Numbered from the stretch's first letter, positions 5,784 to 21,581 are shown. The stretch: DNA of 64,000 nucleotides from an uncultured cyanobacterium (GCA_963744145.1 CAVUSO010000001.1:2976001-3040000); one strand, 5' to 3'. The notes: generated by a model not told the origin, from the letters alone. Translations and numbers: made by a program.

Positions 5784-6296
5784 TTAAGCATCAGGATTAT
5801 CTCCTTGGTGGAGCTGATTTAATAGAATATCAAGGATGCGACGATTTTCAGTTTGGAGTCCGCGAATTTCCTCTTGTTGTTGAAAAATAATTGTTTGTTG
5901 ATGTGTGATATTTGCTTGATGTTGATCCATTCTTTGAAATAACTGTTCTCGTTCCTCTCTAGCTTCTGCTGCTACATTTACTAAAGTTTGAATAGCGCGA
6001 GCATTACTCTCAATTAAGCGATTGTTATTCTCAGTCGCGATCGCAATATTATCCACCCGATTGGTCAAAGTTTCGAGGGAACTAGCGATATTATCCACCC
6101 GATTGGTCAAACCTTCTACCGAACTAGCGATATTATCCACCCGATTGGTCAAACTTTCTACCGAACTAGCGATATTATCCACCCGATTGGTCAAACTTTC
6201 TACCGAACTAGCGATACTATCCACCCGATTGGTCAAACCTTCTACCGAATTAGCTAGACGATCTAGTCTTCCATCATCCCATTGCTGTCTACTCAT
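5784..6296 (-). CDS. Coiled-coil heptad-repeat protein (paralog 1)
   Basis: Starts MSRQQWDDGRLDRL; 14-aa repeats (IASSVESLTNRVDN); C-terminus EIRGLQTENRRILD. Confidence 0.75.
   Translation of the reverse strand: MSRQQWDDGRLDRLANSVEGLTNRVDSIASSVESLTNRVDNIASSVESLTNRVDNIASSVEGLTNRVDNIASSLETLTNRVDNIAIATENNNRLIESNARAIQTLVNVAAEAREEREQLFQRMDQHQANITHQQTIIFQQQEEIRGLQTENRRILDILLNQLHQGDNPDA
6042..6255. repeat. In-frame 42-nt tandem repeat (about 5 units)
   Basis: GCGATATTATCCACCCGATTGGTCAAAcTTTCTACCGAACTA repeated head to tail. Confidence 0.9.
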
Positions 6297-6505
6297 AAAT
6301 TTTTTCCCCAACTTGCTGGTTTTTATGATAACTTAGATTTTAGTTATTTTACTTAATCATTCTGCGATCATCTTACTTTTCTGCGATGCGATCGCGCAGG
6401 ATAGATTTTTGGGGATAAATATTATCGTGTATAATGCTCAGAGAATACACCTATTAATCGAGCCAGATAGAAACATTAACTACTTTGAACAGGGTAAAGA
6501 TCGCC

Positions 6506-7081
6506 ATGACTAGCTTAACATTAAACCTTAACCCCATTATTAAACTGACAGATGAACAATTTTTTCAACTCTGTCAAGAAAATGACAATATTAGATTAGA
6601 ACGCACCGCTAAAGGAGAATTAATTATCATGTCACCCGCAGGAGGAGAAACTGGAAATCGGAATGGAAGATTAACACAGCAATTATTCAATTGGGTGGAT
6701 CAAGATGCTAGCGGTATTGCGTTTGATTCTTCCACGGGATTTAAACTACCTAATGGTGCAGATAGATCACCTGATGCTGCTTGGGTAAAGTTAGAACGTT
6801 GGAATGCTTTAACTCCTGAACAAAAAACGAAATTTCCTCCTTTGTGTCCAGATTTTGTGGTGGAATTACTTTCACCGAGTGATAGTTTGAAAGAAACTCA
6901 GGATAAGATGAAGGAATATCGAGATAATGGTGTACTTTTGGGGTTGTTAATTAATCGCAAAAATCAACAAGTAGAAATTTATCGACCAGGTAGAGAAGTT
7001 GAGGTATTAGATCATCCTACTCAGATATCTGGTGATCCGGTTCTCCCTGGTTTTGTGTTAAACTTAGCATCAATTTGGTAG
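6506..7081 (+). CDS. Uma2 family PD-(D/E)xK putative endonuclease, copy 1
   Basis: RLERTAKGELIIMSP, FDSSTGFKLPNGADRSPDAAWV, CPDFVVELLSPSD, KMKEY motifs. Confidence 0.93.
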   Translation: MTSLTLNLNPIIKLTDEQFFQLCQENDNIRLERTAKGELIIMSPAGGETGNRNGRLTQQLFNWVDQDASGIAFDSSTGFKLPNGADRSPDAAWVKLERWNALTPEQKTKFPPLCPDFVVELLSPSDSLKETQDKMKEYRDNGVLLGLLINRKNQQVEIYRPGREVEVLDHPTQISGDPVLPGFVLNLASIW

Positions 7082-7225
7082 CGATAACAGTGATGAGAAA
7101 TGCGATCGCTTTTTTTCTAAAGTGCGATCGCACCTAATTTATTATAGTGTATAATGCTCAGAAAATGTACCTGTTAATCGAGCCAGATTGAAACCTTAAC
7201 CACTTTGAAAAGAATAAATATCGCT

Positions 7226-7801
7226 ATGACCAGCTTAACATTAAACCTCAACCCCATTATTAAACTGACAGATGAACAATTTTTTCAACTCTGTCAAGAA
7301 AATGACAATGTTAGATTAGAACGCACCGCTAAAGGAGAATTAATTATTATGTCACCCGCAGGAGGAGAAACTGGAAATCGCAATGCAGGACTAACTGCAC
7401 AACTTTGGATTTGGAATGAGCAAAATAAACAAGGTATTGTTTTTGATTCTTCCACGGGATTTAAACTACCTAATGGTGCAGATAGATCACCTGATGCTGC
7501 TTGGGTAAAGTTAGAACGTTGGAATGCTTTAACTCCTGAACAAAAAACGAAATTTCCTCCTTTGTGTCCAGATTTTGTGGTGGAATTACTTTCACCGAGT
7601 GATAGTTTGAAAGAAACTCAGGATAAGATGAAGGAATATCGAGATAATGGTGTACTTTTGGGGTTGTTAATTAATCGCAAAAATCAACAAGTAGAAATTT
7701 ATCGACCAAGTAGAGAAGTTGAGGTATTAGATCATCCTACTCAGATATCTGGTGATCCGGTTCTCCCTGGTTTTGTGTTAAACTTAGCATCAATTTGGTA
7801 G
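7226..7801 (+). CDS. Uma2 family PD-(D/E)xK putative endonuclease, copy 2
   Basis: Same motifs; near-identical to copy 1 apart from one 20-codon block. Confidence 0.93.
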   Translation: MTSLTLNLNPIIKLTDEQFFQLCQENDNVRLERTAKGELIIMSPAGGETGNRNAGLTAQLWIWNEQNKQGIVFDSSTGFKLPNGADRSPDAAWVKLERWNALTPEQKTKFPPLCPDFVVELLSPSDSLKETQDKMKEYRDNGVLLGLLINRKNQQVEIYRPSREVEVLDHPTQISGDPVLPGFVLNLASIW

Positions 7802-7867
7802 CGATAACAGTGATGAGAAATGCGATCGCTTTTTCTCAAGTACGATCGCCTCAACCTTCTAATTTAA

Positions 7868-8359
7868 TTAAGCAGTAGGATGATCTCCCTGATTACGCTG
7901 ATTGATTAGAATATCAAGAATGCGACGATTTTCAGTTTGGAGTCCGCGAATTTCTTCTTGTTGCTGAACAATAATTGCTTGTTGCTGTGCCATATTTGCT
8001 TGTTGCTGTGCTATATTTTCTTGATGTTGATCCATCCTTTGAAATAACTGTTCTCGTTCTTCCCTTGCTTCTGCTGCTACATTTGCTAATGCTTGAATAA
8101 CGCGAGCATTACTCTCGATCAAGTGATTGTTATTCTCGGTCGCGATCGCAATCCGATCAACCCGATTGGTCAAATTTTCGACCGAGTTAGCGATATTATC
8201 AACCCGATTGGTCAAATTTTCGACCGAGTTAGCGATATTATCAACCCGATTGGTCAAATTTTCGATCGAGTTAGCGATATTATCAACCCGATTGGTCAAA
8301 TTTTCGACCGAGTTAGCTAGACGATCTAGTCGAGCGTCATCCCATTGCTCCCTACTCAT
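7868..8359 (-). CDS. Coiled-coil heptad-repeat protein (paralog 2)
   Basis: Starts MSREQWDDARLDRL; 14-aa repeats IANSVENLTNRVDN from 42-nt units at about 8148-8315; same C-terminus as paralog 1. Confidence 0.75.
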   Translation of the reverse strand: MSREQWDDARLDRLANSVENLTNRVDNIANSIENLTNRVDNIANSVENLTNRVDNIANSVENLTNRVDRIAIATENNNHLIESNARVIQALANVAAEAREEREQLFQRMDQHQENIAQQQANMAQQQAIIVQQQEEIRGLQTENRRILDILINQRNQGDHPTA

Positions 8360-8547
8360 AAATTTTTCTCCTAAATTGCTGATTTTTATCATAACTTCTC
8401 TTTGAGTTCTTTTGCTTACCCTGCCACGTTCGCTAATTTTTCCCCAGGTGTGAACAGCACTATGTTATAATCAAAAGGATTAAACACATATTAGTGACTT
8501 TTTATTGAGCAGCAAATCAATAATAAATTTTTAAGTGCCTAGGATAA

Positions 8548-11500
8548 ATGATTACTATTACTAATTACGTCATTACTGAAAATCTCTATATTGGCAAAAA
8601 ATCAAAAATTTATCGGGGATACCGTCAATCTGATTCTGTCCCGGTAGTAATCAAAGTTTTGCATACCCAATATCCTCAGTTTCAAGAGCTAGTTATGCTC
8701 AGAAATGAATATAACTTGACTAAAAATCTCAATCTTCCTGGGATAATTAAATCTTATAGTTTGGCACCATATAATAATAGTTATGCAATTATTATGGAAG
8801 ATCTAGGTGGAATTTCTTTGCAGGAATATATTAGAACTAAAGTTTTAGATTTAGCGGAATTTTTAGCGATCGCGATTAAGATTGTCCAAATCTTAGCAAA
8901 TTTATATGAGGAAAGAGTTATTCATAAAGATATTAAACCTGCTAATATTTTAATTAATCCTGATACTAAAGAAATTAAATTAATTGACTTTAGTATTGCC
9001 TCACTTCTACCAAGAGAAACTCAATCTTTAAGTAGTATTAATAATTTAGAAGGAACTCTTGCTTATATTTCCCCAGAACAAACTGGGAGAATGAATCGCG
9101 GGATTGATTATCGAACTGATTATTATTCTTTAGGGGTAACTTTCTATGAATTACTGACAAGACAGTTACCTTTTACAGGGGATGATCCCATAGAAATAGT
9201 ACATTGTCATATTGCCAAACAACCACCTTTGGTCAATGAAATTAATCCCAAGATTCCCCCTGTAATTGCTCAGATTGTTGAGAAATTAATGGCTAAAAAT
9301 CCAGAAAAGCGTTATCAAAGTGCATTGGGTTTACAATATGATTTGGAAAAATGTCTAGAGCAACTACAACTAACTGAGCAAATTCCAGAATTTCCAATTG
9401 GGACAAGAGATGTAAGCGATCGCTTTATCATCCCAGAAAAATTATATGGTAGAGCAGAGGAAGTTGAGCAACTATTAGCAGCTTATGAACGGGTAGCATC
9501 TGGGAGCGAAACAGAAACTGGATGGAAAAATCGGGAAATAATTTTAGTTTCAGGTTATTCAGGAATTGGTAAGAGTGCGCTAATTAGTGAAGTTCATAAA
9601 CCAATTGTCAAGAACAGAGGTTATTTTATCAAAGGGAAGTTTGATCAATTTAATCGTAACATTCCTTTTAGTGCTTTTGTCCAAACCCTGCGAGACTTAA
9701 TGGGACAATTACTGAGTGAAACTGATCAACAGTTAGCACAGTGGAAAACCAAAATTTTGACCGCATTAGGTGAAAATGGACAAATAATTATTGAAGTGAT
9801 TCCGGAACTCGAGAAAATAATTGGTAAACAACTACCAGTACCAGAATTATCAGGAATAGAAGCTCAAAATCGGTTTAATTTATTATTCCAAAAATTTATT
9901 GAAATATTTACAGCTAAAGAGCATCCTCTGGTCATATTTTTAGATGATTTACAATGGGCAGATTTAGGCTCATTACAGTTAATAAAATTGCTAATGAGTG
10001 AATCAAAGGTAGGATATTTACTATTAATTGGTGCTTACCGAGATAATGAAGTATCCCCGAGTCATCCTTTGATATTAGCTTTAGAAGAGATGAAAAAAGC
10101 ATCAGCCATAATTAATACTATTAATTTAGCTCCCCTAAGTCTTTTAAGTTTAAATCAATGGATATCTGATTTGCTTAATGCTGATTTGGAAATAGCTCGA
10201 CCATTGACAGAATTAATCTTGAAAAAAACTCAAGGAAATCCATTTTTTAGTATTCAATTCTTGAAAGCATTATATGAATATGGATTAATTAAATTTGATT
10301 TAGATCAAGGATATTGGCAATGCGATCTTGCTCAAGTCAAAGTGTTAGCTCTGACTGATAACGTAGTAGAATTTATGGCTATGCGCTTACAGGAATTACC
10401 TGAAGCAACACAAAATGTCTTGAAGTTAGCAGCTTGTGTGGGAAATCAATTTGATTTAGCGACTTTAGCAATTGTATCTAAACAATCAGAAATAGAAACA
10501 GCTACAGCTTTATGGAAAGCATTACAAGAAGAATTCATTATTCCTAAAAATGAAGTTTATAAGTTCTACTTAGGACAAGAAACATTAGAATTACAATCAG
10601 ATCCAGAGCCAGGAGAATATAAATTTTTGCATGATCGGATTCAACAAGCAGCTTATTCATTAATTCCTGAACTAGAACGAGCGATCGCTCACTATCAAAT
10701 TGGCAAATTACTATTAGAACAAATGTCTCCTACCGCGCTCGAGGAGCAAATATTTGAAGTAGTTAATCAGCTAAATTATGGAATTGAATTAATTACTAAT
10801 CAAACTGAGCGAGATCAACTAGCACAATTAAATCTTTTTGCTGTTGAGAAAGCTAGCACAGCAACTGCTTATCAAGCAGCGCTTGGATATATAGAAAAAG
10901 GGTTAATTTTACTTGGTAATGAAGCTTGGGATAGACAATATGAGACAACTTTGAAATTACAACAAATCGCAACAGAATTAACCTTCCTTTGTGGTGAATT
11001 TGACCAAATGGAAACTTGGTTTAATTCAGTGATTACTCATGCTATAATTCCGCGAGATCAAGTAGAAGTTTATATCGTAAAAATTCAGGGATTAATCTCT
11101 CAAAATCGACTGATAGAAGCAATTAATAATGGTGTAGTAATTCTCACAAAATTGGGAGTTGAATTAATTGAAAATCCTACCTATCAGGATATTAAACAAG
11201 TAATTCAAGAACTTAATATCTTAGTTGGCGATCGCCCAATAGCAGACCTATTTCATCTGAATAAAATGACCGATTTAGACCAACTAGCGATCGTCAAACT
11301 TGCTGCAATTATTATGCCCGCTTGCTATCATGCTGGATCAGGTTTGTTTCCAATTTTGATCACTTTACAGGTAAAGTTATCTTTACAGTATGGTAATAGT
11401 CCAACTTCATCTCTAAGTTATGCAGCATATAGTATTTGCTTAATTAACCTGACTGATAATATTCCAGAAGCTATGCAATTTACTCAATTAGCATCTCGTC

Positions 11501-13989
11501 TAGCTAATGAACCAGATGCAAAAAAAATTCGCGCGGAAACTTTTTTGGTGATTGGATTATTTTTACACCATCGTCAGTTTGCACTACGGGAAACTTTACC
11601 GACTTTTCCCATAGCTTATCAAAATCACATTGAATTAGGTCAGTTAGATAAAGCTGGACTTAGTATAAATGGATTTTGCATGAATTCTTACTGGTCTGGT
11701 CAAAATTTAGCAGAATTAGCACCCCAAATTTTCAGCTATTATCAGCAACTGTTTGATTTAAAGCAGACAATATCAGCAAACTATTGTTTGGTGTATTGGG
11801 AAACCACACTATTTTTGTTAGGTAATCCTGACCAGATTGAACTTTCTTTTGACGATCTTAGTGCTGAAGAAAAAATGGTAGCTGAGTGTCTTAGCTCTCA
11901 TGATATGTCGAGAGGATTTTTCTTTTATTTACACAGAGCAATGCTAAGATTTTTAATATTAGATATTCAATCAGCTCGAAGAGATGTCATTCAAGCTAGA
12001 CAATATCTTACCGGAGTGAAAGGGTTTGTTTGTGAAGCTGGATTATATTTTTATGACTCACTGATTCATCTTGCTGATCAGAGTGAATTAGAAACTAAAT
12101 TAGAGCAAATCCAAGCAAATCAAACGAAATTAAATCATTGGTCTGAATATGCACCGATGAATTATTTGCACAAATGGCAATTAGTTGAAGCGGAAAGATA
12201 TCGAGTATTGGGAGATAAATTAGCTGCGATTGAGATGTATGAACAAGCGATCGCCGGTGCGAAAAATAACGGTTATGTTCAAGAAGAAGCTTTAGCAAAT
12301 GAATTAGCAGCTAAATTTTATCTAAATTGGGAGAAAGAGAAAATTGCGACCGCATATATGCAATCAGCATACTATTGTTATGCTCAGTGGGGGGCAAAAT
12401 GCAAAACAGATGATTTAGAAAAATGTTATCCCCACTTGCTTATTCCCATCATCCCATCTCCAAACAATCAAGTTAATGAACGAATGGGAACAATTTCCGA
12501 ATTACACTCTATCCGCCAGACTCATAGTAGCAATAGTTTTAGTTTTATTGACTATGATGCGATTATTAAAATGTCTTTAGCCCTATCAGGAGAAATTCAA
12601 ATTGAACAATTGCTGACGACTTTAGTGGAAATTATTATGGCTAATTCTGGAGCAGATAAATGTGCTTTAATTTTACTCAAAGACACTCAGTTATTTATTG
12701 AAGCAACGGGAATTTTTGGAGGAGAAACTACTACGGTGTTGCGATTGATCCCCCTAGAATCTAGTCAAGAGCTACCAGTTTCTCTCATTAAATATGTATA
12801 TAGAACTCAGACAAATGTCTTAATTAATCAAATCCAAAACAACTTTGTTAATGATCCTTATATTCAAAAACAAAAGCCCCCAAGTATATTATGTACTCCG
12901 ATTATTAAACAAGGAAAAATTATCGGGATTATTTATTTAGAAAATAGCCTAATTCAAGGAGTATTTAATTCTTCTCGTCTAGAAATGATTAATCTCTTAA
13001 CCGCTCAAGCAGCTATTTCCTTGGAAAATGCTCAACTTTATGGGAAATTAGAAGCTTATTCTTATACTTTAGAGCAAAAAGTTACAGAGCGGACTCAAGA
13101 GTTAAAAGAAAAAGCTACTCAGCTCGAACTAATTCTTCAAAAACTTTATACCACTCAATCCCAAATGATTCAAACTGAAAAAATGTCCAGCTTGGGTCAG
13201 CTAGTAGCAGGGATTGCTCATGAAATTAATAATCCAATTAGTTTTATTTCTGGTAATATTGATCATGCAAATGAATATATTATCACCTTAATTGAATTGA
13301 TTAAATTATACCAACAACTTGAATATCAACCGACTCTAGAGATTGCTGAAAAATTAGCAGAGCTTGACCTAGACTTTCTAATTTCTGACTTGCAAAAATT
13401 ATTAAATTCCATGAAAACTGGTAGCGATCGCGTCAAACAAATTGTCAATTCTCTCCGCAATTTTTCCCGGTTAGATGAATCCAAAATTAAATCTGTTGAT
13501 CTACACACAGGTATTGAAAGTACATTACTAATCCTACAACATCGATGCCAAGATGATAGTAAGTATCAGAAAATTAAAATAATTAAAGAATATGGTCAAC
13601 TTCCATTAGTTAAATGTTACGCATCGGAATTAAATCAGGTTTTTATGAATATCATCAATAATGCTATTGATACATTACATCAAGCAGATCAAGAGTTTTC
13701 TGAATGGAATCAAGAACCGACAATTAGGATTAATACGAGCATGAATGATCTCCAAACTGTGGTGATCATCAAAATTGCGGATAATGGGATGGGGATCAAA
13801 CCAGCTCTACTCACTAAAATTTTTGATCCCTTTTTTACCACTAAACCAGTGGGTCAAGGAACAGGATTAGGATTATCAATTAGTTACTCGATTATCGTGG
13901 AAAAACATCACGGTAAGTTAAGCTGTATTTCTCCTCCTGGGAGGGGAGCAGAATTTATCATTGAAATTCCCCTTTTTATTGACAATTAG
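8548..13989 (+). CDS. Giant Ser/Thr kinase - AAA ATPase - GAF - histidine kinase (kinase 1)
   Basis: HKDIKPANILI and DFSIA kinase motifs, P-loop GYSGIGKS, FLDDLQWAD, GAF ILCTPI...IYLEN, H-box AHEINNP, G-boxes DNGMGI and [15 protein letters not shown]. Confidence 0.95.
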   Translation: MITITNYVITENLYIGKKSKIYRGYRQSDSVPVVIKVLHTQYPQFQELVMLRNEYNLTKNLNLPGIIKSYSLAPYNNSYAIIMEDLGGISLQEYIRTKVLDLAEFLAIAIKIVQILANLYEERVIHKDIKPANILINPDTKEIKLIDFSIASLLPRETQSLSSINNLEGTLAYISPEQTGRMNRGIDYRTDYYSLGVTFYELLTRQLPFTGDDPIEIVHCHIAKQPPLVNEINPKIPPVIAQIVEKLMAKNPEKRYQSALGLQYDLEKCLEQLQLTEQIPEFPIGTRDVSDRFIIPEKLYGRAEEVEQLLAAYERVASGSETETGWKNREIILVSGYSGIGKSALISEVHKPIVKNRGYFIKGKFDQFNRNIPFSAFVQTLRDLMGQLLSETDQQLAQWKTKILTALGENGQIIIEVIPELEKIIGKQLPVPELSGIEAQNRFNLLFQKFIEIFTAKEHPLVIFLDDLQWADLGSLQLIKLLMSESKVGYLLLIGAYRDNEVSPSHPLILALEEMKKASAIINTINLAPLSLLSLNQWISDLLNADLEIARPLTELILKKTQGNPFFSIQFLKALYEYGLIKFDLDQGYWQCDLAQVKVLALTDNVVEFMAMRLQELPEATQNVLKLAACVGNQFDLATLAIVSKQSEIETATALWKALQEEFIIPKNEVYKFYLGQETLELQSDPEPGEYKFLHDRIQQAAYSLIPELERAIAHYQIGKLLLEQMSPTALEEQIFEVVNQLNYGIELITNQTERDQLAQLNLFAVEKASTATAYQAALGYIEKGLILLGNEAWDRQYETTLKLQQIATELTFLCGEFDQMETWFNSVITHAIIPRDQVEVYIVKIQGLISQNRLIEAINNGVVILTKLGVELIENPTYQDIKQVIQELNILVGDRPIADLFHLNKMTDLDQLAIVKLAAIIMPACYHAGSGLFPILITLQVKLSLQYGNSPTSSLSYAAYSICLINLTDNIPEAMQFTQLASRLANEPDAKKIRAETFLVIGLFLHHRQFALRETLPTFPIAYQNHIELGQLDKAGLSINGFCMNSYWSGQNLAELAPQIFSYYQQLFDLKQTISANYCLVYWETTLFLLGNPDQIELSFDDLSAEEKMVAECLSSHDMSRGFFFYLHRAMLRFLILDIQSARRDVIQARQYLTGVKGFVCEAGLYFYDSLIHLADQSELETKLEQIQANQTKLNHWSEYAPMNYLHKWQLVEAERYRVLGDKLAAIEMYEQAIAGAKNNGYVQEEALANELAAKFYLNWEKEKIATAYMQSAYYCYAQWGAKCKTDDLEKCYPHLLIPIIPSPNNQVNERMGTISELHSIRQTHSSNSFSFIDYDAIIKMSLALSGEIQIEQLLTTLVEIIMANSGADKCALILLKDTQLFIEATGIFGGETTTVLRLIPLESSQELPVSLIKYVYRTQTNVLINQIQNNFVNDPYIQKQKPPSILCTPIIKQGKIIGIIYLENSLIQGVFNSSRLEMINLLTAQAAISLENAQLYGKLEAYSYTLEQKVTERTQELKEKATQLELILQKLYTTQSQMIQTEKMSSLGQLVAGIAHEINNPISFISGNIDHANEYIITLIELIKLYQQLEYQPTLEIAEKLAELDLDFLISDLQKLLNSMKTGSDRVKQIVNSLRNFSRLDESKIKSVDLHTGIESTLLILQHRCQDDSKYQKIKIIKEYGQLPLVKCYASELNQVFMNIINNAIDTLHQADQEFSEWNQEPTIRINTSMNDLQTVVIIKIADNGMGIKPALLTKIFDPFFTTKPVGQGTGLGLSISYSIIVEKHHGKLSCISPPGRGAEFIIEIPLFIDN

Positions 13990-14012
13990 GTCTAAGCTAG
14001 GTTATGATAAAA
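13718..14012 (+). repeat. 295-bp direct repeat, left copy (kinase 1 3' end plus downstream)
   Basis: Matches 21287-21581 with only two mismatches seen by eye. Confidence 0.92.
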
Positions 14013-14060
14013 CCTAGGCTAGAATTCGTTTAAAAAGTATGGAGTTATTTAGGGGTTAGC

Positions 14061-15281
14061 TCAAAGATTTATTTTTTTTGACTGAGGGTTGACTGAGCAG
14101 TTCTGAATTTTGGCATAGATAGCAAGTGCAGCGATCGCAAACAGTGCCATCACACCAGACATAGCGTAGGTTGTGTGTCCGTCAAAGAAAAAGCCAATCA
14201 GCGCACTTGATATAGCACCTGCTAACATTTGCAGAAATCCAATTAATGCCGTAGCAATCCCAGTAGCCTCTGCTCCTACCATAAGTGCGCTAAAGATAGC
14301 ATTGGGTGGAATTAGTCCAGCACAGAATGTATTAATGATCAGGCATGGCATCAGTGTTGTCACCCCTGCCCAACCACTAACCGATAGGATGACAAGTGCA
14401 ACAGATGAGGTAGCAGAAAGCACTAACCCAACACTGAGCAAACGTGCCGATGATATCCCAAGGCTAGTCAAACGTCCATTGAGAAATGAGCCAGCCATAA
14501 TCCCGCAAGCAGTTAATGCGAAGAGTAAACCATAGGTTGTGGTCGAGATCCCTAAGACCTTGAGCATGACAAGTGGCGACCCCGCAACGTAAGCAAACAT
14601 ACACCCAAAAGTCAGAGCGTTGATCATCGCATAGCCTAGATAAATCGGATTACTGAGGAGCTGGATATAATTCCCTATTAACTGTCGTGGTTTTAGGGCA
14701 CTTAGATCTCGGCTTTTAATTGACTCACCCAGACCGATGGCCACAATCAGCACCAGGAGCATCCCGCCAACAGCCAGGAATCCATAGATTGCACGCCAAT
14801 TGGCGATCGCTAATATTGCCCCGCCAATTGTGGGTGCAATCATTGGTGCTATGGTCATTACTACGTTGACATAGGAGAGCTTGGTGCGAGCCGCTTGATC
14901 CTCAAACAGATCACGGATGATTGCCAGCATCAAAACCATCCCAGCACCTGCACCTGCGCCCTGAAATAAGCGACAAGCTATCAGTACATTTATTGATGGG
15001 GCAATAGTACCACCAATACTGGCCAGTGCAAAGAGGATGCAGCCTATGAGTAAAGCTGGTTTGCGTCCATAGTAATCGGAGAATGGACCAAAAATCAGTT
15101 GGGAGGTAGCGAACCCAAGCATAAACAGACTCAGGGTTAGCCCCACCGATCCACTTGATGCCTCCAGTGATGCACTAATCATTGGCAATGCTGGTAGTGC
15201 CATATCTATTGATAAAGGTGGCAGTGCGGCAATTATGCCAAAAAGCACGGTAAAGCTAATCGAGTTAGGGTTAATCCGCAT
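14061..15281 (-). CDS. Bcr/CflA-family MFS efflux transporter
   Basis: LPPLSIDMALPALP, GPFSDYYGRKP, RLFQG, AIIRDLF, APTIGG, WRAIY; 12-TM pattern. Confidence 0.92.
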   Translation of the reverse strand: MRINPNSISFTVLFGIIAALPPLSIDMALPALPMISASLEASSGSVGLTLSLFMLGFATSQLIFGPFSDYYGRKPALLIGCILFALASIGGTIAPSINVLIACRLFQGAGAGAGMVLMLAIIRDLFEDQAARTKLSYVNVVMTIAPMIAPTIGGAILAIANWRAIYGFLAVGGMLLVLIVAIGLGESIKSRDLSALKPRQLIGNYIQLLSNPIYLGYAMINALTFGCMFAYVAGSPLVMLKVLGISTTTYGLLFALTACGIMAGSFLNGRLTSLGISSARLLSVGLVLSATSSVALVILSVSGWAGVTTLMPCLIINTFCAGLIPPNAIFSALMVGAEATGIATALIGFLQMLAGAISSALIGFFFDGHTTYAMSGVMALFAIAALAIYAKIQNCSVNPQSKKINL

Positions 15282-15284
15282 ATT

Positions 15285-16499
15285 TTAATGTTGACTAAAG
15301 TGCGGATATGTGAAATGTCGATTTCCGATAAATTCTAATAGGCTCTTACCGTAATTCTGGAGAAGCTGATCAGAGAATAAATACTTGTGGTGAGCAGCAG
15401 CACTGATGTCACGATAACATTTCTGTAGCGCACTCTCCCGTAGCGCAACTCCATCGCTAGCCCGATAAGCAAATGTGCATACTTCTAATGCTACCTCATA
15501 CACATATCGGCTACTAAGTTGCGATAAGACCATTTGTGGGGAGCTAGCAACGCTGCCATTTTCTAAAGTACAGAAAACATCGTTCCATACTTCCAAGCTA
15601 AAGCTACGCGCCGATCGCATCTTGGCTTCAGTTAAGGCAAATTTCTCCTGAAAACTAGGCGAATTACTAATAAATTTGGACGATTCCTCTTTGACTACAG
15701 CGATCGCCGCCAGTTCATCCAAAGCTCTCCGTCCCACTCCTAAAGCGAAACCAGCATGAGCCAGGGAAAGTAAACCAGCCATCCCTAACTTATAAAGCCC
15801 TCCTCCACGCTTTGGCTCCGATTCATTGATTAAAAAGCTAAATGCTTCCGATTGGTATAGATTGCTAACCGAGAAATCAAAACTACCAGTACCTTGTAAA
15901 CCTAACACCCACCAATTATCACCAACAGTAATGGCATTTCGTGGGCAATAAAAAACCCGTTGTTCAGGGCAACCATTCGGTAGTAATCTAGGTCGATCTT
16001 CATCTATAACCGTGACTCCACAAAAAACATAATTTGCATGTGTAATACCACTGCCATAACTGTACTTGCCATTAATTAGGTATTGGTCTCTTTTCTGTAC
16101 TGCTTGTCCGCGATAACAAGCTCCGCTTCCAGCTACTACTAAGTCAACCGTATTGCCAAATATTTCTGCAACTGCATCATTTCCCAAAAATGCACCTGCT
16201 AGTGCTGTTTGTGCTACGCTATTTAACAGACACCAACCTGCCGATGCATGATGGTAAGAAATTTCCTCAATCACTTGGATAACTGTCAAAGGATCTACTT
16301 CAATACCCCCAATACTTTTCGGAACCAACATCCGGTAAAGTCCAGCTCCTTTCATGGTTGCAACGGTTTGATCAGTGAGATGCCGTTGTTGTTCGGCATT
16401 ACTCATTTCAGCCCGCAGAATTGGTGCAATTAACTTAGCATTTTCAATTAAATTTTGGCTGACTTTTTTTGATTGGATACCTGGTGATTCTAGTTGCAT
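15285..16499 (-). CDS. Acyl-CoA-dehydrogenase-fold flavin-dependent monooxygenase (aromatic hydroxylase, HsaA/IacA/NcnH-like)
   Basis: GLYRMLVPKSIGG, SAGWC, NGKYSYGSG..HA, DNWWVLGLQGTGSFD, LQKCYRD motifs; ATG 16499 (TTG 16511 possible). Confidence 0.85.
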   Translation of the reverse strand: MQLESPGIQSKKVSQNLIENAKLIAPILRAEMSNAEQQRHLTDQTVATMKGAGLYRMLVPKSIGGIEVDPLTVIQVIEEISYHHASAGWCLLNSVAQTALAGAFLGNDAVAEIFGNTVDLVVAGSGACYRGQAVQKRDQYLINGKYSYGSGITHANYVFCGVTVIDEDRPRLLPNGCPEQRVFYCPRNAITVGDNWWVLGLQGTGSFDFSVSNLYQSEAFSFLINESEPKRGGGLYKLGMAGLLSLAHAGFALGVGRRALDELAAIAVVKEESSKFISNSPSFQEKFALTEAKMRSARSFSLEVWNDVFCTLENGSVASSPQMVLSQLSSRYVYEVALEVCTFAYRASDGVALRESALQKCYRDISAAAHHKYLFSDQLLQNYGKSLLEFIGNRHFTYPHFSQH

Positions 16500-16556
16500 A
16501 AATTTTTCCAATATCTGCCTAAGTTTGCTATTGCTGATCTAATTGATCTATGTTAG

Positions 16557-17810
16557 TTAACCTAACTGAAACAGAATCCCTTCTATACCTACTCCTGGTG
16601 AAAATGAAAAGGCAATACCAGTTAATGGTGTCAGTTGTTTGTCGGATGACTTTTGAGTTTCATGATGGTGATTGTTCAATCCCACATATTCTTGATCATT
16701 AATAGGATAATCCTTATTCCTTCTTAATATCATACGTTGGAGTACAAACAGTACCGAGGGACTCAGCATATTGCCATATTGACGAAGGATCTCCCAACTA
16801 TCAGCCACTTGGCTATCACTCAGTCCAAGAGAAAGCTGTGACTTCTCAATAATGCGTGTCCCACCAGGATGAATAGCCCACAGATCAATATTTTCTTTTG
16901 TTAGTTTATGCTTTGCTAGAAAACGTTCAATAATTGGACCGACTCCAGTTTCAATGTAATCAGGTAATTGGCGTGATAACTTACAGGTAATTCCATTATC
17001 TTTTATGCCCAAAACAATACCATCTTTGGTCTGGGGAGCCAGGTAACTTAAGTGATCTTTAATGACGACTTTACCTTGACCGAATGCTTGCTGTTTTTCA
17101 ATCGCTCCGATTACCATTGCCGCACATCCATCGCCAAAAATACTATGAATAATTACATCTCCAATTTCATCTTCAAATACGGCGTTGACTGAACTCAATT
17201 CCAGACAGATTACCAGAGCTTTATGGGCTGGATGAGCTAGCACATGATTGCCCGCAACTAACAGTCCATTCATGGCAGCAGCACAACCCATAAAACTTAT
17301 TGTCACCCGAGCTGTATCTGGTCTGAGTTCGAGTTTCTCAATTAATTCTATATCTACTCCTGGTGCTACAAAACCTGTACTCGAAACAAAAACAATGAGA
17401 CGAATAGAATCAACAATGTTCTCCTGACTTACAGATGCCTCTTTAAGTGCTTGTCTAGCAACCCGTTCAGCCAGAGGAACAGCATACTTCTTATAAAGAT
17501 GCATCCGGAACTCAATATTACCTTGCTGTTGACTGAATGCTACTGTCTCATCACATAGTAAATTAACAGCCAAGTGTCTCGTCTCAATTCGAGTATTTTG
17601 GTAAAGCTTATCGATCCGGGTGCGATTTTGTTCTAAGTTAAGCAGGTTCGTAACAACTCTAGCTGCATCGGATTGTGGAATGATGTTCTCAGGAGTCCCA
17701 GTTGCGATACTTTTAATGATTGGAAAAAACTGCTTTGATTTCTGCATACTAGCTCGCAAAATAAATATTTTACTGAAATACGGGATACTGCGGGCACAGC
17801 TTCTTGTCAA
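16557..17810 (-). CDS. Type III polyketide synthase, Pks18-like (probable start ATG 17747)
   Basis: Cys-His-Asn triad in FMGCAAA, WAIHPGG and YGNMLS; ELSSVNAVF..IIHSIFGDGCAA resembles mycobacterial Pks18. Confidence 0.93.
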   Translation of the reverse strand: MTRSCARSIPYFSKIFILRASMQKSKQFFPIIKSIATGTPENIIPQSDAARVVTNLLNLEQNRTRIDKLYQNTRIETRHLAVNLLCDETVAFSQQQGNIEFRMHLYKKYAVPLAERVARQALKEASVSQENIVDSIRLIVFVSSTGFVAPGVDIELIEKLELRPDTARVTISFMGCAAAMNGLLVAGNHVLAHPAHKALVICLELSSVNAVFEDEIGDVIIHSIFGDGCAAMVIGAIEKQQAFGQGKVVIKDHLSYLAPQTKDGIVLGIKDNGITCKLSRQLPDYIETGVGPIIERFLAKHKLTKENIDLWAIHPGGTRIIEKSQLSLGLSDSQVADSWEILRQYGNMLSPSVLFVLQRMILRRNKDYPINDQEYVGLNNHHHETQKSSDKQLTPLTGIAFSFSPGVGIEGILFQLG

Positions 17811-19210
17811 ATCGAGTTGAATCCAACAAAACCTTCACTAATATATTTTAGTGACGTTAATAATTGTTGTGGATGAAGATGTTCCTTGAAAATGCCAAAG
17901 TTATTTTCTTTGGCGATTCTTGATGGACTAAATAAGTAATATTTAATCAAGGTTGGTAATCTGTCCAGAAAAAAGTTTTTTGGTGGTAACCAGACAATGT
18001 TAAATTTCTCCGCTTCCTCTTGGACAAGATCTTCACTGATAATATTGGCAAAGCCACTTTTTTGATATGGCAGTGTATGGTGTACACGGTGTGAAGCAAG
18101 GCCAGCCGACAAAAAGCAGTCAATGTACTTGTTGCCAATCATCGTCAAATCGTAGGCATTTTTAATTTGGAAGACTGCCCAATCTTGATTCTCTATAAGA
18201 TCGACTTTTGCTCCGGCTTCTTCTTCAAAATCGTGACTAGCAACAATCAGAAATGTGCCGATCCATAGAGTAATAAAAAATTGGATAAACCAAGCCCCTA
18301 AATCATCGTTTATCCAAAACAAAATTAACTCACTAAAAAGAAGTATCCGCATAGCAAAGAGACCAATATAATGGGGAATACTTTCTTGCCAAGAGCCATA
18401 TAAATCTTTAGGAACACCGAAATTGTATCCAAATAATAAGCTAATCGCTCGAAAAAACATTCCTGTCAGAACATGGGCTAATTTATGTAAAGTATGAAGT
18501 GGGATTCGATAGTAACGAGGCAGTTCTAGGATGGCGGTAAAAACATTTCTCTTGATGTCAGGTTCGCACTGAGTAAAAGGATGATGCATCAAAGTATGAC
18601 CATCCGTAACTACAAAAGCCATCGGCACGTAGTTGAGATCAAAAATGTGTGAAAATATTTTGTTGAGACCAACCTGTTTTCGATGAATTAGATAATGACC
18701 CGCACCTGAGAGCGAGATTCTTAACACCACCATTAGTGGAACAAACAGATAAATTGGCATATAGGACGTAAATTTTAATCGCAGCAATTCCACGAGGATA
18801 TACATCACGAACAAAATCGCGGTAATGACATCAAAAAGCAAGTCCATTTTCTCAATTCTTTTTGTCATTTCCTGCGTTTTTAGTCTGCTTTTGATCCGAT
18901 CAAGAAGTTGCTCCTTATTGTCGAAGTTAAACTTTGGTGTATCTCTCCAGCTATCAAATTTTTCCTTAAACAAAAATTCTGGAGCGCTATATTTAGGATG
19001 AACGTCATCAGGTACAGCTTTTCTTCCTAAAGCATATTTCTGGAGAATTTTCTTATTCTTCTCAATGTTGGGATGAAAAATATTAATCAATGTTGTAATA
19101 TCTCTATTTCTCATCCGTCCAATGAAGAAACCACCACCGGGATGCTGCTTGATAAAGTCAGATAGATCGTATGCTTCTCCCTCGTAAACCCATATATTAG
19201 ACATATTCAA
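17807..19210 (-). CDS. Cytochrome b5-fused membrane fatty-acid desaturase/hydroxylase
   Basis: N-terminal b5 motif YDLSDFIKQHPGG; His boxes HYLIH, HTLMHH, HRVHH; several TM helices. Confidence 0.88.
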   Translation of the reverse strand: MNMSNIWVYEGEAYDLSDFIKQHPGGGFFIGRMRNRDITTLINIFHPNIEKNKKILQKYALGRKAVPDDVHPKYSAPEFLFKEKFDSWRDTPKFNFDNKEQLLDRIKSRLKTQEMTKRIEKMDLLFDVITAILFVMYILVELLRLKFTSYMPIYLFVPLMVVLRISLSGAGHYLIHRKQVGLNKIFSHIFDLNYVPMAFVVTDGHTLMHHPFTQCEPDIKRNVFTAILELPRYYRIPLHTLHKLAHVLTGMFFRAISLLFGYNFGVPKDLYGSWQESIPHYIGLFAMRILLFSELILFWINDDLGAWFIQFFITLWIGTFLIVASHDFEEEAGAKVDLIENQDWAVFQIKNAYDLTMIGNKYIDCFLSAGLASHRVHHTLPYQKSGFANIISEDLVQEEAEKFNIVWLPPKNFFLDRLPTLIKYYLFSPSRIAKENNFGIFKEHLHPQQLLTSLKYISEGFVGFNSI

Positions 19211-19277
19211 TTGCTGCTGCTTCTAAGTGTTGTTATTTGTCAGGATTGGATGATTATTGAAAGAGCGCTAATATAGG

Positions 19278-20021
19278 TTATGTAGGAGAACGTCTTAATG
19301 TAATGTCAAATTTCCACTGTTTAGCCCCCTCCAGAATATTTTTTTTCTGATTAGCCAGAGATTTTTCCTGATTAGTTAGAGAATTTTCCTGATTAGCTAT
19401 GACTAAATACTGAAGACGGGGGGGCACTTCTTGTATTACTCTGTCTTGTTGATGTAAAGGATCACCCGCAAAAAACATCTGCGTTATTAAATCGTGGAAT
19501 CCTAACTTAGAAACATGAAAATGAATATGGGATGGACGAACCCAACCTCCCCATGCGGGATAGCTACTCGGCATAATCGTAAGGAATTCGTACCGACCCT
19601 GAATATCTGTTTGACAAAATCCCCAATGCTGAAAATTTGGATCTATAGTCCCATTTGTATCTTCAGGATGATCGTATCGCCCTTGTGCATCGGCTTGCCA
19701 TATCTCTACCTGAGCATTCTGAATAGGACGACATTGCTGATCAGTAACCCGTCCATACAAGTAAATCACCTGTCCTGCTGCAGGTTGGTTACGTCCATTG
19801 ATCAGGGTTAAATCATTGTCTTTATCTTCCTGGTTTTTTGTGGGATAAAATGGCCCTTCACCGAGAGGAGGAGTAACTATTGCCTTACAAGATTGAGCAT
19901 TTGTTTCTGTACGCCCAGATTGAGCTGACAATGGTAATCCTAGACCAATAGCTCCAGCCGACAGGAGTATTGATTTTTTTAACAAGTCACGTCTACCGAT
20001 TTTAAGAATTTTATGATCCAT
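19278..20021 (-). CDS. Intradiol ring-cleavage dioxygenase (protocatechuate 3,4-dioxygenase beta-like) with Tat signal
   Basis: GRRDLLK twin-arginine plus hydrophobic segment; EGPFY, VEIWQADAQGRYDHP, PSSY and RPSHIHF give the Tyr/Tyr/His/His iron ligands; start ATG 20021 or TTG 20042. Confidence 0.88.
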   Translation of the reverse strand: MDHKILKIGRRDLLKKSILLSAGAIGLGLPLSAQSGRTETNAQSCKAIVTPPLGEGPFYPTKNQEDKDNDLTLINGRNQPAAGQVIYLYGRVTDQQCRPIQNAQVEIWQADAQGRYDHPEDTNGTIDPNFQHWGFCQTDIQGRYEFLTIMPSSYPAWGGWVRPSHIHFHVSKLGFHDLITQMFFAGDPLHQQDRVIQEVPPRLQYLVIANQENSLTNQEKSLANQKKNILEGAKQWKFDITLRRSPT

Positions 20022-20132
20022 ATCGAAACTATATTTCTCCAATTTATATACAAATTTTGCTTGGCTGTTAGCAAAACCTGGTTAGAGCGGGTTTTCAGGT
20101 CAGAATCTTGGGGTTTGGATTCAACACCTATT

Positions 20133-20175
20133 CCCCTACGGATTAATGTAGGGGCGCAAAAGCTCTGCCGCCCGT
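20133..20175. repeat. REP-like palindrome remnant
   Basis: CCCCTAC-n8-GTAGGGG followed by GTAGGGGCGCAAAAGCTCTGCCGCCC. Confidence 0.5.
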
Positions 20176-20223
20176 TGATCTCAACCAAAGCTTTTAGGGC
20201 GGGTGTTTTTCTATTGTTTTTCT

Positions 20224-20244
20224 ATTATAACATGATTATAACAT
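20224..20244 (-). promoter_or_regulatory. Doubled extended -10 motif, candidate promoter of the PKS operon
   Basis: Two copies of ATGTTATAAT (TGnTATAAT) on the minus strand, 11-nt period, about 200 nt upstream of the dioxygenase. Confidence 0.45.
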
Positions 20245-20312
20245 TTTTTACCGAGGGTTTACCTCAACCAATTCCAGCGCTCATCTCCAGATAACTTTGG
20301 TTACTTCACAAC

Positions 20313-20408
20313 GGGTGCATCTCATATTTGCAAATTTATCAATCAGGTAACGAAAAACAAGCATTTCAGCCTCCTGTTTCAAGGTTTTTGCAAAACTGAG
20401 ATGCACCC
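20313..20408. mobile_element. 96-bp MITE with 22-bp TIRs and 9-bp target duplication
   Basis: TIR GGGTGCATCTCA(ta/gt)TTTGCAAA; CTTCACAAC at 20304-20312 and 20409-20417; empty site TTACTTCACAACCATTAG present in kinase 2 (about 25890). Confidence 0.92.
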
Positions 20409-20842
20409 CTTCACAACCATTAGATACTTACCGCTCAAATTAATCCAATTGGTGAAAAGAACTCTCAATCATGTTGTACTTGATAGTTGGGAAAATCCTA
20501 GTCATCTGATTGACAATTATGGTTCTTCAATATCAACCTAAAAGCACTTTAGGTCTCCCCATCCTTGCTCCAGGGAGATTTGGTAGAGATTTTTGATCTC
20601 GAAAATTACTTAACCCAAGGAGTATTTACTCGCGATCGCTTAGTAGTGGTTCAGTTTCTCTGTACTCAAGCTGCTATTTCTCTCGTCAATGCTCGACTTG
20701 ATCAAAAAACACAAGCAGCATGACAAAATTTACAACCCAATTAGTTTTATTTCTGGTAAAATCGCTCATTCAAATGAATACATTACACTCTTAATTGAAT
20801 TGATTAAATTATACCAACAACTTGAATATCAACCGACTCTAG

Positions 20843-21267
20843 AACACCGATTCAGTAATAAAATACTGAGTATAAATATTTAAGAGATTTACCAGAAATA
20901 GGGCTGACTAAATTTAACTGGAATGTATAATCAGGACAGATTTTAACTGCTTGGACAGTTCAAGGAGACCAAGCTCGTTATTTTGGGATTCGGAAAAACT
21001 TATTTGATTTGCGACGTAGTGCTGTAGTTCATCACCTACATATTTTGGCGCGATTAGGAATAGATCACCTCCGAACAAGTCAGTTCACCGAGTCCCTCTC
21101 CAGTTTAATTAGGTTACATTTGTTTTCTGTCAGCATCAACTCTACCAATTTTCTTCAGATTTACTCAAAATCCTTTTCTTGGAAGATATTTGTTTTTTTG
21201 CGGAAACGCAATTACCGGATTAATATCCTCAGTATTTCTACTTATAATCTATTACTGAATCGGTGTT
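20843..21267 (+). mobile_element. 425-bp internally deleted IS, IS1182-family-like
   Basis: TIR AACACCGATTCAGTAATA / TATTACTGAATCGGTGTT; CTAG duplicated at 20839-20842 and 21268-21271 (empty site CGACTCTAGAGATTG at about 13331); broken transposase tail QGDQARYFGIRKN..DLRRSAVVHHLHILAR. Confidence 0.88.
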
Positions 21268-21286
21268 CTAGAGATTGCTGAAAAAT

Positions 21287-21581
21287 CGACAATTAGGATT
21301 AATACGAGCATGAATGATCTCCAAACTGCGGTGATCATCAAAATTGCGGATAATGGGATGGGGATCAAACCAGCTCTACTCACTAAAATTTTTGATCCCT
21401 TTTTTACCACTAAACCAGTGGGTCAAGGAACAGGATTAGGATTATCAATTAGTTACTCGATTATCGTGGAAAAACATCACGGTAAGTTAAGCTGTATTTC
21501 TCCTCCTGGGAGGGGAGCAGAATTTATCATTAAAATTCCCCTTTTTATTGACAATTAGGTCTAAGCTAGGTTATGATAAAA
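21287..21581 (+). repeat. 295-bp direct repeat, right copy
   Basis: Matches 13718-14012 at offset 7569. Confidence 0.92.

What the first reader, a model, noticed from the sequence alone, without database searches (positions are those of the whole stretch)
14061..20042. Unusual type III PKS cluster with a Tat-exported ring-cleavage dioxygenase
Seen: five co-oriented, closely spaced genes: a Tat-signal intradiol dioxygenase with intact iron ligands, a b5 desaturase, a PKS with intact Cys-His-Asn, a flavin monooxygenase and a Bcr/CflA exporter. Known: Pks18-type enzymes extend long acyl-CoAs to alkylpyrones, related type III PKSs give alkylresorcinols, mycobacterial pks18 also has a desaturase-like neighbour, ACAD-fold monooxygenases hydroxylate phenols, and intradiol dioxygenases cleave catechols. 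Inference: an unsaturated alkyl-aromatic is made, ortho-hydroxylated to a catechol or triol, exported, then ring-cleaved outside the cytoplasm. That could be maturation to a muconate, lactone or furanone lipid, or self-protection from a redox-active product. I do not recognise this combination from characterised cyanobacterial alkylresorcinol clusters.
Basis: partly seen in the sequence, partly recalled or inferred. Interest (0 to 1): 0.82.

Follow-up and report, generated by a model that had tools for sequence, protein, structure and literature searches.

The report
Polyketide cassette with exported ring-cleaving enzyme
A mobile five-gene cyanobacterial cluster appears to build a fatty-tailed phenol, add hydroxyls, export it and cut its ring open outside the cytoplasm, which would give a first job to a group of secreted ring-cleaving enzymes whose role is unknown.

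Summary
The five genes are real, intact and co-oriented. The core (cytochrome-b5/di-iron enzyme + PKS18-like type III PKS) is a published, uncharacterised cassette (Larsen 2021, clade 3.1); 76 of 80 related PKS loci have it, often followed by an ABC transporter. What is new is a rare sub-lineage carrying an ACAD-fold flavin hydroxylase and a Tat-signal intradiol dioxygenase. It is optional: the nearest named relative (Dolichospermum MAG) lacks it. The Tat peptide is family-wide (60 of 91 relatives). A sister copy sits beside a 2-deoxy-scyllo-inosose-synthase-like gene, a second possible route to a benzenetriol. No beta-ketoadipate pathway was found in the genome. Direct repeats and an IS remnant bound the unit. 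Best model: alkylresorcinol → alkyl-1,2,4-benzenetriol → export → ring cleavage outside the cytoplasm, most likely as maturation. Chemistry, location and co-transcription are inferred, not shown.

The parts
19278..20021 (-). Tat-signal intradiol ring-cleavage dioxygenase, single catalytic domain, 247 aa (alternative TTG start 20042)
   Evidence: PF00775; below the PcaH/CatA equivalog cut-offs; Fe ligands invariant; intradiol fold, model pLDDT 84.5; Tat rule; only PF00775 gene in the genome
17807..19204 (-). Cytochrome b5 fused to a membrane di-iron (FADS-like) desaturase/hydroxylase; Rv1371/MMAR_2189-like neighbour of PKS18-type genes
   Evidence: PF00173; invariant His boxes in 37 of 37; VIA-align 8xks_K Z 12.8 (rmsd 5.0, 302 aligned), AlkB Z 10.8 (rmsd 5.5, 265), SCD1 Z 5.5; Foldseek gave no hit with E<=0.001
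16557..17747 (-). PKS18-like type III polyketide synthase (alternative TTG start 17810 overlapping the b5 stop)
   Evidence: Best PDB 7CB3 E 7e-107, PKS18 1TED 2e-104, Ectocarpus PKS 4B0N 2e-92; Cys-His-Asn intact; Ser185 at the PKS18 Cys205 position, Ala189 at Ala209
15285..16499 (-). ACAD-fold two-component (class D) flavin monooxygenase, oxygenase subunit; no reductase gene in the cluster
   Evidence: PF08028/PF02771; HsaA model 102 bits against cut-off 450; best PDB Rv3094c 1.5e-27, then HsaA-type, XiaF and HPAH C2; two stand-alone PF01613 genes elsewhere in the genome
14061..15281 (-). Bcr/CflA MFS exporter, recruited from a stand-alone cyanobacterial family
   Evidence: TIGR00710 above cut-off; 64.5% identical to a stand-alone paralogue at C1:7604120-7605250
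20224..20243 (-). Two tandem perfect extended -10 motifs (TGnTATAAT), 202 and 213 bp upstream of the dioxygenase ATG; candidate operon promoter
   Evidence: Pattern match only; the general promoter scan was at chance level (20 found, 21.1 expected)
13712..14012 (+). Left copy of a 301-bp direct repeat (3' end of kinase gene 8548-13989 plus 23 bp)
   Evidence: 98.7% identical, 4 differences
21281..21581 (+). Right copy of the 301-bp direct repeat; removing one copy and the intervening DNA leaves the two kinase genes 55 bp apart
20839..21270 (+). Internally deleted IS remnant: both ends of the transposase element at C1:2798654-2800542
   Evidence: 97% identity over 112 and 312 bp
20259..20843 (+). 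Mosaic of kinase-gene fragments (85-92% to the flanking kinases) and a 96-bp dispersed repeat (20313-20408, 5 copies in the genome)

Best explanation
A mobile operon for an oxidatively opened phenolic lipid. (1) The PKS18-like enzyme extends a long acyl-CoA with three malonyl units and closes a carbocyclic ring (5-alkylresorcinol; acylphloroglucinol possible). (2) The b5/di-iron membrane enzyme desaturates or hydroxylates the chain. (3) The class D flavin monooxygenase, supplied with reduced flavin in trans, hydroxylates the ring ortho to an OH, giving an alkyl-1,2,4-benzenetriol. (4) The Bcr/CflA protein moves it across the membrane. (5) The Fe(III)-loaded dioxygenase, exported folded by Tat, cleaves between the vicinal OH groups to an alkyl-maleylacetate/hydroxymuconate that can close to a butenolide- or tetronate-type lipid. 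This is the matured product. Shown: gene identity, intact active sites, operon-like spacing, purifying selection, co-inheritance of dioxygenase + b5 + ACAD, and transfer as one unit. Inferred: every substrate, product, the order of steps, co-transcription and the compartment.
For: Consecutive accessions MGB7712671 (dioxygenase)...672 (b5) and ...674 (ACAD) on a 16,870-bp Microcoleus contig, and MGB8690639/640 on a 5,741-bp contig. 7 of 12 members of the nearest dioxygenase cluster share an exact contig length with one of 40 b5 rows, and 3 of them also with an ACAD row; 100,000 random draws gave at most 2 matches. ACAD-linked b5 proteins form one clade (100/100, 12 rows). Window + Microcoleus-type dioxygenases form their own subclade (SH-aLRT 96, quick tree) with a distinct motif after the axial Tyr (SSYPAWGG..RPSH). 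No CoA-transferase PF01144; muconate cycloisomerase and PcaB models stay below cut-off; no alpha subunit (genome 96% complete). A PKS18 orthologue, MMAR_2190, makes alkylresorcinols and acylphloroglucinols besides pyrones (PMC12329547). Resorcinol is degraded via 1,2,4-trihydroxybenzene and a 1,2-dioxygenase (PMC7764795). The secreted enzyme SACTE_2871 cleaves hydroxyquinol (PMC12420386). Intradiol dioxygenases, one from the sister subclade and one unrelated cytoplasmic type, flank DOI-synthase-like + TIM-barrel genes in 2 of 14 such loci, which points to a benzenetriol as shared substrate.
Against: The dioxygenase is in 0 of 80 PKS loci from species-representative genomes and is missing from the nearest named variant, which keeps b5-PKS-ACAD (L009). 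The triol or quinone can therefore be an end product. Many of the 7 linked contigs are near-identical (100% b5 identity for two of them), so there are only about three lineages. The PKS and MFS genes on those contigs were not seen. The Tat peptide occurs in 60 of 91 relatives regardless of context; two distant copies examined (L090, L093/L143) have no biosynthetic neighbours. Pyrones were the most abundant in vitro products of MMAR_2190, and Larsen predicts pyrones for this clade; a pyrone is not a normal intradiol substrate. The genome has its own DOI-synthase-like cluster without a dioxygenase, which the enzyme could serve in trans.
Confidence: 0.42

Rival explanations
1. Self-protection or turnover: the useful product is the alkyl-benzenetriol or its quinone (redox shuttle, reductant or antimicrobial), and the exported dioxygenase destroys what stays in the envelope before it autoxidises.
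For: The variant without the dioxygenase keeps ACAD and lies beside a porin and an EF-hand NOX/ferric-reductase-like gene (L009), which fits a redox-active end product. Secreted monomeric mite intradiol dioxygenases act as broad detoxifiers (PMC9167512). The enzyme is optional in both cluster types where the clade is seen.
Against: Placing the destroying enzyme first in the same operon and in the export compartment would waste product. The PKS-linked subclade has its own active-site-adjacent motif, which fits specialisation more than general scavenging.
Confidence: 0.25
2. Passenger or trans-acting gene: the dioxygenase joined the cassette once and hitch-hikes. It acts on external phenolics or on the product of the DOI-synthase-like cluster elsewhere in the genome, not on the polyketide.
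For: Family-wide Tat peptide. The sister copy lies beside a DOI-synthase-like gene, and this genome carries such a cluster (82% identity) without a dioxygenase at C1:1717652-1723129. Linkage rests on about three related lineages.
Against: Linkage persisted across dS of about 0.4-0.5 (measured for the L009 pair) and across a b5 gene that diverged to 80% while the dioxygenase and ACAD stayed at 91-92%. The dioxygenase tree follows gene context. No route to use ring-cleavage products as carbon was found.
Confidence: 0.18
3. The cassette makes an alkylpyrone or acylphloroglucinol; ACAD hydroxylates it to an enediol or tetrol, and the dioxygenase performs a non-standard cleavage or ring contraction.
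For: PKS18 makes only pyrones, and the Ectocarpus relative makes (acyl)phloroglucinols.
Against: Known class D enzymes and intradiol dioxygenases act on benzenoid phenols and catechols (established knowledge; relatives).
Confidence: 0.1
4. Iron handling: the catechol-type lipid binds or reduces Fe(III), and the periplasmic dioxygenase frees the iron by destroying the ligand, replacing the ferric-reductase-like gene of the sister variant.
For: L009 has an OprB/SLH porin in the operon and a ferric-reductase/NOX-like gene 730 bp downstream.
Against: A single locus. No TonB receptor or iron-uptake gene lies in the five-gene unit, and EF-hand NOX proteins are more often superoxide sources (recalled).
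Confidence: 0.05

Closest known systems
[quoted passage not shown] 2021, PMC8086630; noted in PMC6836626)
   Same: b5 gene directly upstream of a PKS18-like gene, with a transporter downstream; product unknown
   Different: Usually an ABC/RND export set (ABC-family ORF in 33 of 45 loci). Here ACAD hydroxylase + Bcr/CflA + Tat dioxygenase; the word 'dioxygenase' occurs 0 times in both main texts
Mycobacterial rv1371-pks18-rv1373 and mmar_2189-2193 loci (PMC13141999, PMC12329547, PMC8730385)
   Same: Putative desaturase + PKS18-type synthase; MMAR_2190 gives resorcinols, acylphloroglucinols and pyrones
   Different: Tailoring there is by sulfotransferase and methyltransferase, with no ring hydroxylase or ring-cleavage enzyme
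Extracellular intradiol dioxygenases (SACTE_2871, fungal EIDs, mite DOGs; PMC12420386, PMC9167512)
   Same: Signal peptide + catalytic domain only, 2-Tyr/2-His iron site; hydroxyquinol is a substrate of SACTE_2871; function of EIDs stated as unknown
   Different: Sequence is nearer PcaH (E 7e-28) than SACTE_2871 (E 1.4e-7); no carbohydrate-binding module; sits in a biosynthetic operon
Resorcinol catabolism via hydroxyquinol (rol/rhc of Corynebacterium, PMC7764795; Rhizobium gra genes, recalled) and the HsaA/HsaC pair (recalled)
   Same: Phenol ortho-hydroxylase followed by ring-cleavage dioxygenase
   Different: Those are cytoplasmic and followed by maleylacetate reductase and beta-ketoadipate enzymes; here the substrate is made in-house and cleavage is outside the cytoplasm
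Streptomyces srsABC alkylresorcinol/alkylquinone and cyanobacterial hidABC hierridin clusters (passages)
   Same: Type III PKS + ring hydroxylation to a trioxygenated alkylbenzene
   Different: Different PKS clades and hydroxylase folds; the ring is protected by O-methylation, not cleaved
Fungal ring-fission polyketides (multicolic acid, penicillic acid; recalled, not found)
   Same: Alkyl-trihydroxybenzene opened oxidatively to a tetronate or butenolide
   Different: Fungal, type I PKS, intracellular

Membership tests
Intradiol ring-cleavage dioxygenases | Dioxygenase_C domain and fold | tested here: met
   PF00775 117 bits; Foldseek E 1e-18 to 3,4-PCD beta
Intradiol ring-cleavage dioxygenases | 2-Tyr/2-His Fe(III) ligands plus catalytic Arg | tested here: met
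   Y116, Y154, R162, H165, H167 aligned to PcaH and invariant in 50 of 50
Intradiol ring-cleavage dioxygenases | O2-dependent cleavage of a vicinal diol | not testable with these tools
   needs an enzyme assay
Protocatechuate 3,4-dioxygenase (PcaGH) | Equivalog score and alpha-subunit partner | tested here: not met
   TIGR02422 145.8 against 296.4; one PF00775 gene in the genome
Protocatechuate 3,4-dioxygenase (PcaGH) | Downstream beta-ketoadipate genes | tested here: not met
   PF01144 none; TIGR02534 and TIGR02426 below cut-off; genome 96.3% complete
Catechol/hydroxyquinol 1,2-dioxygenases | N-terminal helical dimerisation domain (PF04444) | tested here: not met
   no PF04444 hit; the N-terminus is a signal peptide with low pLDDT
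Extracellular intradiol dioxygenases (EID) | Signal peptide and catalytic domain only | tested here: met
   rule-based Tat motif, TatC present; SignalP not run
Extracellular intradiol dioxygenases (EID) | Placement in the SACTE_2871 clade | tested here: inconclusive
   closer to PcaH by E-value; no tree with reference EIDs built
Extracellular intradiol dioxygenases (EID) | Actual export | not testable with these tools
   periplasm versus thylakoid lumen needs fractionation
PKS18-like type III PKS (clade 3.1) | Cys-His-Asn triad, small tunnel residues, best hits in the PKS18 group | tested here: met
PKS18-like type III PKS (clade 3.1) | Adjacent cytochrome b5 gene | tested here: met
   window; 76 of 80 related loci
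PKS18-like type III PKS (clade 3.1) | Product ring type | not testable with these tools
   relatives give pyrone, resorcinol or phloroglucinol
Membrane di-iron desaturase/hydroxylase superfamily | Three His boxes plus extra His, and FADS-like fold | tested here: met
   Z 12.8 and 10.8, moderate for a helical protein
Fatty acid desaturase (PF00487) | Family score | tested here: inconclusive
   no hit on this protein; listed for 9 of 120 homologues
Class D two-component flavin monooxygenase | ACAD fold with monooxygenase best hits and C-terminal His | tested here: met
   7 of 8 PDB hits are monooxygenases/hydroxylases; AAAHH aligns with Rv3094c His351; role of that His recalled
Class D two-component flavin monooxygenase | Flavin reductase partner | tested here: inconclusive
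   none in the cluster; 4 PF01613 matches in the genome, 2 stand-alone
HsaA / HPAH C2 equivalogs | Curated cut-off | tested here: not met
   102 against 450; 75 against 650
Bcr/CflA MFS | TIGR00710 cut-off | tested here: met
   255.6 against 200.9

The most novel reading that the evidence does not exclude
Cyanobacteria use a small dedicated clade of Tat-exported intradiol dioxygenases as an extracytoplasmic maturation step for home-made benzenetriols. It was recruited to two unrelated routes: a type III PKS/flavin-hydroxylase route (alkyl-benzenetriol, giving ring-opened butenolide or tetronate lipids) and a 2-deoxy-scyllo-inosose synthase/dehydratase route (hydroxyquinol from glucose-6-phosphate). 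This would be a biosynthetic role for secreted intradiol dioxygenases and would define two unreported product families.
Probability: 0.3. Interest if true: 0.8.

Novelty: new variant of a known kind. Interest (0 to 1): 0.6.

Why it matters
Secreted intradiol dioxygenases are a recognised clade with no known function (PMC12420386), and no product is known for the b5 + PKS18-like clusters of cyanobacteria (PMC8086630) or for the homologous mycobacterial operon (PMC13141999). This 6-kb self-contained cassette gives a testable substrate for the first and an easy expression target for the second. A natural variant without the dioxygenase serves as a built-in control. If maturation is right, it is a bacterial route to ring-opened phenolic lipids with the last step outside the cytoplasm.

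Tried and rejected
Viral contigs: no PKS relative. Whole-genome searches for close dioxygenase relatives gave only distant hits or none: 17 of 151 order genomes had any hit, the best other than the window being 45%; 0 of 121, 0 of 144 and 0 of 79 at E<=1e-20 in family and genus samples (no positive control inside those samples). DNA search of 301 genomes gave no match to the dioxygenase part outside G000; ACAD 1 of 301, own genome only. So no DNA of a second five-gene locus was read, and linkage elsewhere rests on accessions and contig lengths. Co-conservation of the MFS could not be tested; its closest genome hits are stand-alone or in other contexts. The metagenome scan gave 3 loci. Plasmids: only PcaH-like hits under 60%. 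No RNA holder was listed, so nothing can be said on expression. Run X1 matches the window letter for letter and may be its source, so it is not independent; one contig bridges the b5/dioxygenase junction. One contig joins 21532 back to 13964, which could be an excised circle or a collapsed repeat (49 shared letters, depth about 5); not used as evidence. Promoter and terminator scans were at chance level. The Atlas gave only PF00775 clusters. Foldseek gave no significant hit for the b5 protein. Earlier-findings look-ups returned nothing. My first reading, 'dioxygenase is a bystander' (from 0 of 80 loci), was dropped as the leading view. 'Catabolic PcaH' was rejected. No complex prediction was run. 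Literature searches for the combination: (open-access library only); none listed a paper describing it. The one paper holding all terms is a retracted metagenomics paper, seen as a listing only. MIBiG and antiSMASH were not available. The supplements of PMC8086630 (cluster table, clinker figure) were not opened and could list such a cluster. PMC3689997 (SACTE_2871) was not held.
Full report
OBSERVATION. The five ORFs are present on the minus strand at the stated place, in the order dioxygenase (19278-20021), b5 protein (17807-19204), PKS (16557-17747), ACAD-fold protein (15285-16499) and MFS (14061-15281), with gaps of 73, 59, 57 and 3 bp. The dioxygenase keeps both Tyr, both His and the Arg of the intradiol iron site, invariant in 50 of 50 aligned relatives, and folds as an intradiol dioxygenase. 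It is not PcaH or CatA: it scores below every equivalog cut-off, has no N-terminal dimerisation domain, and is the genome's only PF00775 gene. The b5 protein has no PF00487 hit, but its haem and di-iron histidines are invariant in 37 of 37 sequences. Its model aligns best to FADS-like and AlkB chains (Z 12.8 and 10.8; Foldseek not significant), so it is a membrane di-iron enzyme that may desaturate or hydroxylate. The PKS is nearest to 7CB3 (recalled as M. marinum MMAR_2190; not confirmed), PKS18 and the Ectocarpus enzyme. dN/dS of 0.17-0.31 for three genes and 0.35 for the dioxygenase core indicate maintained genes.

BOUNDARIES. The unit lies between two 301-bp direct repeats (13712-14012 and 21281-21581, 4 differences) that copy the 3' end of the left Ser/Thr-His kinase gene. 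Removing the intervening DNA leaves the two kinase genes 55 bp apart. Next to the right repeat are both ends of an IS found intact elsewhere in the genome (97%) and scraps of kinase genes. I infer that all five genes arrived as one insertion.

WHAT IS COMMON AND WHAT IS RARE. Of the best 80 of 261 PKS-relative loci, 76 have the b5 gene, 1 has the ACAD gene, and 0 have the dioxygenase or this MFS at E<1e-5. An ABC-family ORF was in 33 of the 45 loci annotated. This core is the published clade 3.1 (PMC8086630: parts 1-4 of 8 read plus term search; PMC6836626: passages), with unknown products. The one ACAD locus (Dolichospermum MAG, L009; 85% nucleotide identity over ACAD-PKS-b5) has an EF-hand gene where the dioxygenase would be. 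It is followed by a different MFS, a porin and a NOX-like gene, and its genome has no PF00775 hit above cut-off.

CO-INHERITANCE OF THE DIOXYGENASE. Its close relatives form one isolated clade (516 bits, next 214) of four 90% clusters besides the window's own. In the nearest cluster (77% identity), accessions MGB7712671, 672 and 674 (dioxygenase, b5, ACAD) share a 16,870-bp Microcoleus contig; the gap at 673 fits the PKS but was not seen. MGB8690639 and 640 share a 5,741-bp contig. In all, 7 of 12 members share an exact contig length with one of 40 b5 rows, and 3 also with an ACAD row. The 5 misses are contigs of 1,047, 1,048, 1,905, 3,628 and 7,288 bp. Random lengths gave at most 2 matches in 100,000 draws. 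These records are related, so they count as about two lineages besides the window. All ACAD-linked b5 proteins form one clade (100/100; 27 selected rows). The window and Microcoleus-type dioxygenases form a subclade (SH-aLRT 96; quick tree of 20 selected rows). None of the 7 sister-subclade records shared a length with the b5 or ACAD rows listed (by eye).

THE SISTER CONTEXT. The one sister copy whose DNA I could read (P0005 in L089) lies 47 bp after a cyclase whose best solved relative is 2-deoxy-scyllo-inosose synthase (E 1e-56) and before a TIM-barrel gene. This cyclase occurs in 13 of 301 genomes of the order, including the window's own. Among 14 such loci, 13 show a TIM-barrel gene and 2 an intradiol dioxygenase: L089 (Tat type) and G119 (cytoplasmic hydroxyquinol-dioxygenase type, with a flavin halogenase) (several contigs are short). 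Loss of two waters from DOI gives a benzenetriol (stoichiometry; chemistry recalled), so two unrelated clusters may converge on a 1,2,4-triol substrate. This is an inference from 2 loci.

EXPORT. The RR motif passes a simplified, recalled TatFind rule, and TatC is present. 60 of the 91 best relatives pass as well, so export is inherited. Secreted single-domain intradiol dioxygenases are known; their function is called unknown, and SACTE_2871 cleaves catechol, protocatechuate, caffeate and hydroxyquinol (PMC12420386, passages). Mite enzymes detoxify plant catechols as monomers (PMC9167512, passages). In cyanobacteria Tat also serves the thylakoid lumen (recalled), so the compartment is open.

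MECHANISM. Catabolism is unlikely: no 3-oxoacid CoA-transferase was found and the cycloisomerase models stay below cut-off. MMAR_2190 makes alkylresorcinols and acylphloroglucinols besides the more abundant pyrones (PMC12329547, parts 1-2 of 6), and resorcinol is opened via 1,2,4-trihydroxybenzene (PMC7764795, passages). I therefore favour alkylresorcinol → chain oxidation → ring hydroxylation → export → intradiol cleavage. The probability that the dioxygenase acts on the cassette's own product is about 0.7-0.8. Within that, maturation to a ring-opened lactone lipid is 0.42, self-protection 0.25, non-benzenoid variants 0.10 and iron release 0.05. A passenger or trans role is 0.18. No step is shown biochemically, and there are no expression data.

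NOVELTY. Ten literature searches listed no description of a type III PKS cluster with an intradiol dioxygenase; the library is open-access only, and MIBiG and the Larsen supplements were not seen. Other papers seen: PMC13141999 (part 1 of 5 and passages; Rv1371 function unconfirmed), PMC8730385 (one passage) and PMC6274091 (passages). Verdict: a new variant of a known but uncharacterised cluster type. Interest 0.6.

Noticed in passing
G000:C1:1717652-1723129 (L147:11652-17129, minus strand): DOI-synthase-like cyclase, secreted vanadium-haloperoxidase-like gene, ureidoglycolate-lyase-like gene, MFS split in two ORFs and TIM barrel: an apparently undescribed cluster in the window's own genome; cyclase found in 13 of 301 genomes of the order
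   Followed up: partly
L144:7022-15639 (G119:C7): DOI-synthase-like cyclase, TIM barrel, cytoplasmic hydroxyquinol-type dioxygenase, flavin halogenase, MFS, Na/H antiporter and cupin: candidate halogenated ring-cleavage pathway from glucose-6-phosphate
   Followed up: partly
L164-L167, L169-L172: A second conserved arrangement in 8 loci: DOI-synthase-like cyclase, (cytochrome b561), MFS, TIM barrel, short-chain dehydrogenase
   Followed up: no
L009:5628-16685: Dolichospermum variant: EF-hand protein, b5, PKS, ACAD, MFS-EF-hand fusion, OprB/SLH porin, then an EF-hand NOX/ferric-reductase-like gene
   Followed up: partly
L039, L045, L049: The b5-PKS pair is embedded among violacein-type genes (VioE, ferritin-like VioB-type, flavin oxidases, anthranilate synthase) in three cyanobacterial loci
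   Followed up: no
window 13964-21532: One low-depth contig of run X1 joins the right repeat back to the left flank: an excised circle or an assembly artefact
   Followed up: no
window 5784-8392: Two coiled-coil ORFs with an 11-residue repeat (NRVDNIASSVE-like) flank two near-identical Uma2-like endonuclease genes (label recalled): a local duplication
   Followed up: no
proteins P0123 and P0261 clade: One sister dioxygenase (P0123) has lost the twin arginines. ACAD-linked b5 proteins are mostly short (465-488 aa) while many ABC-linked ones carry N-terminal extensions
   Followed up: no
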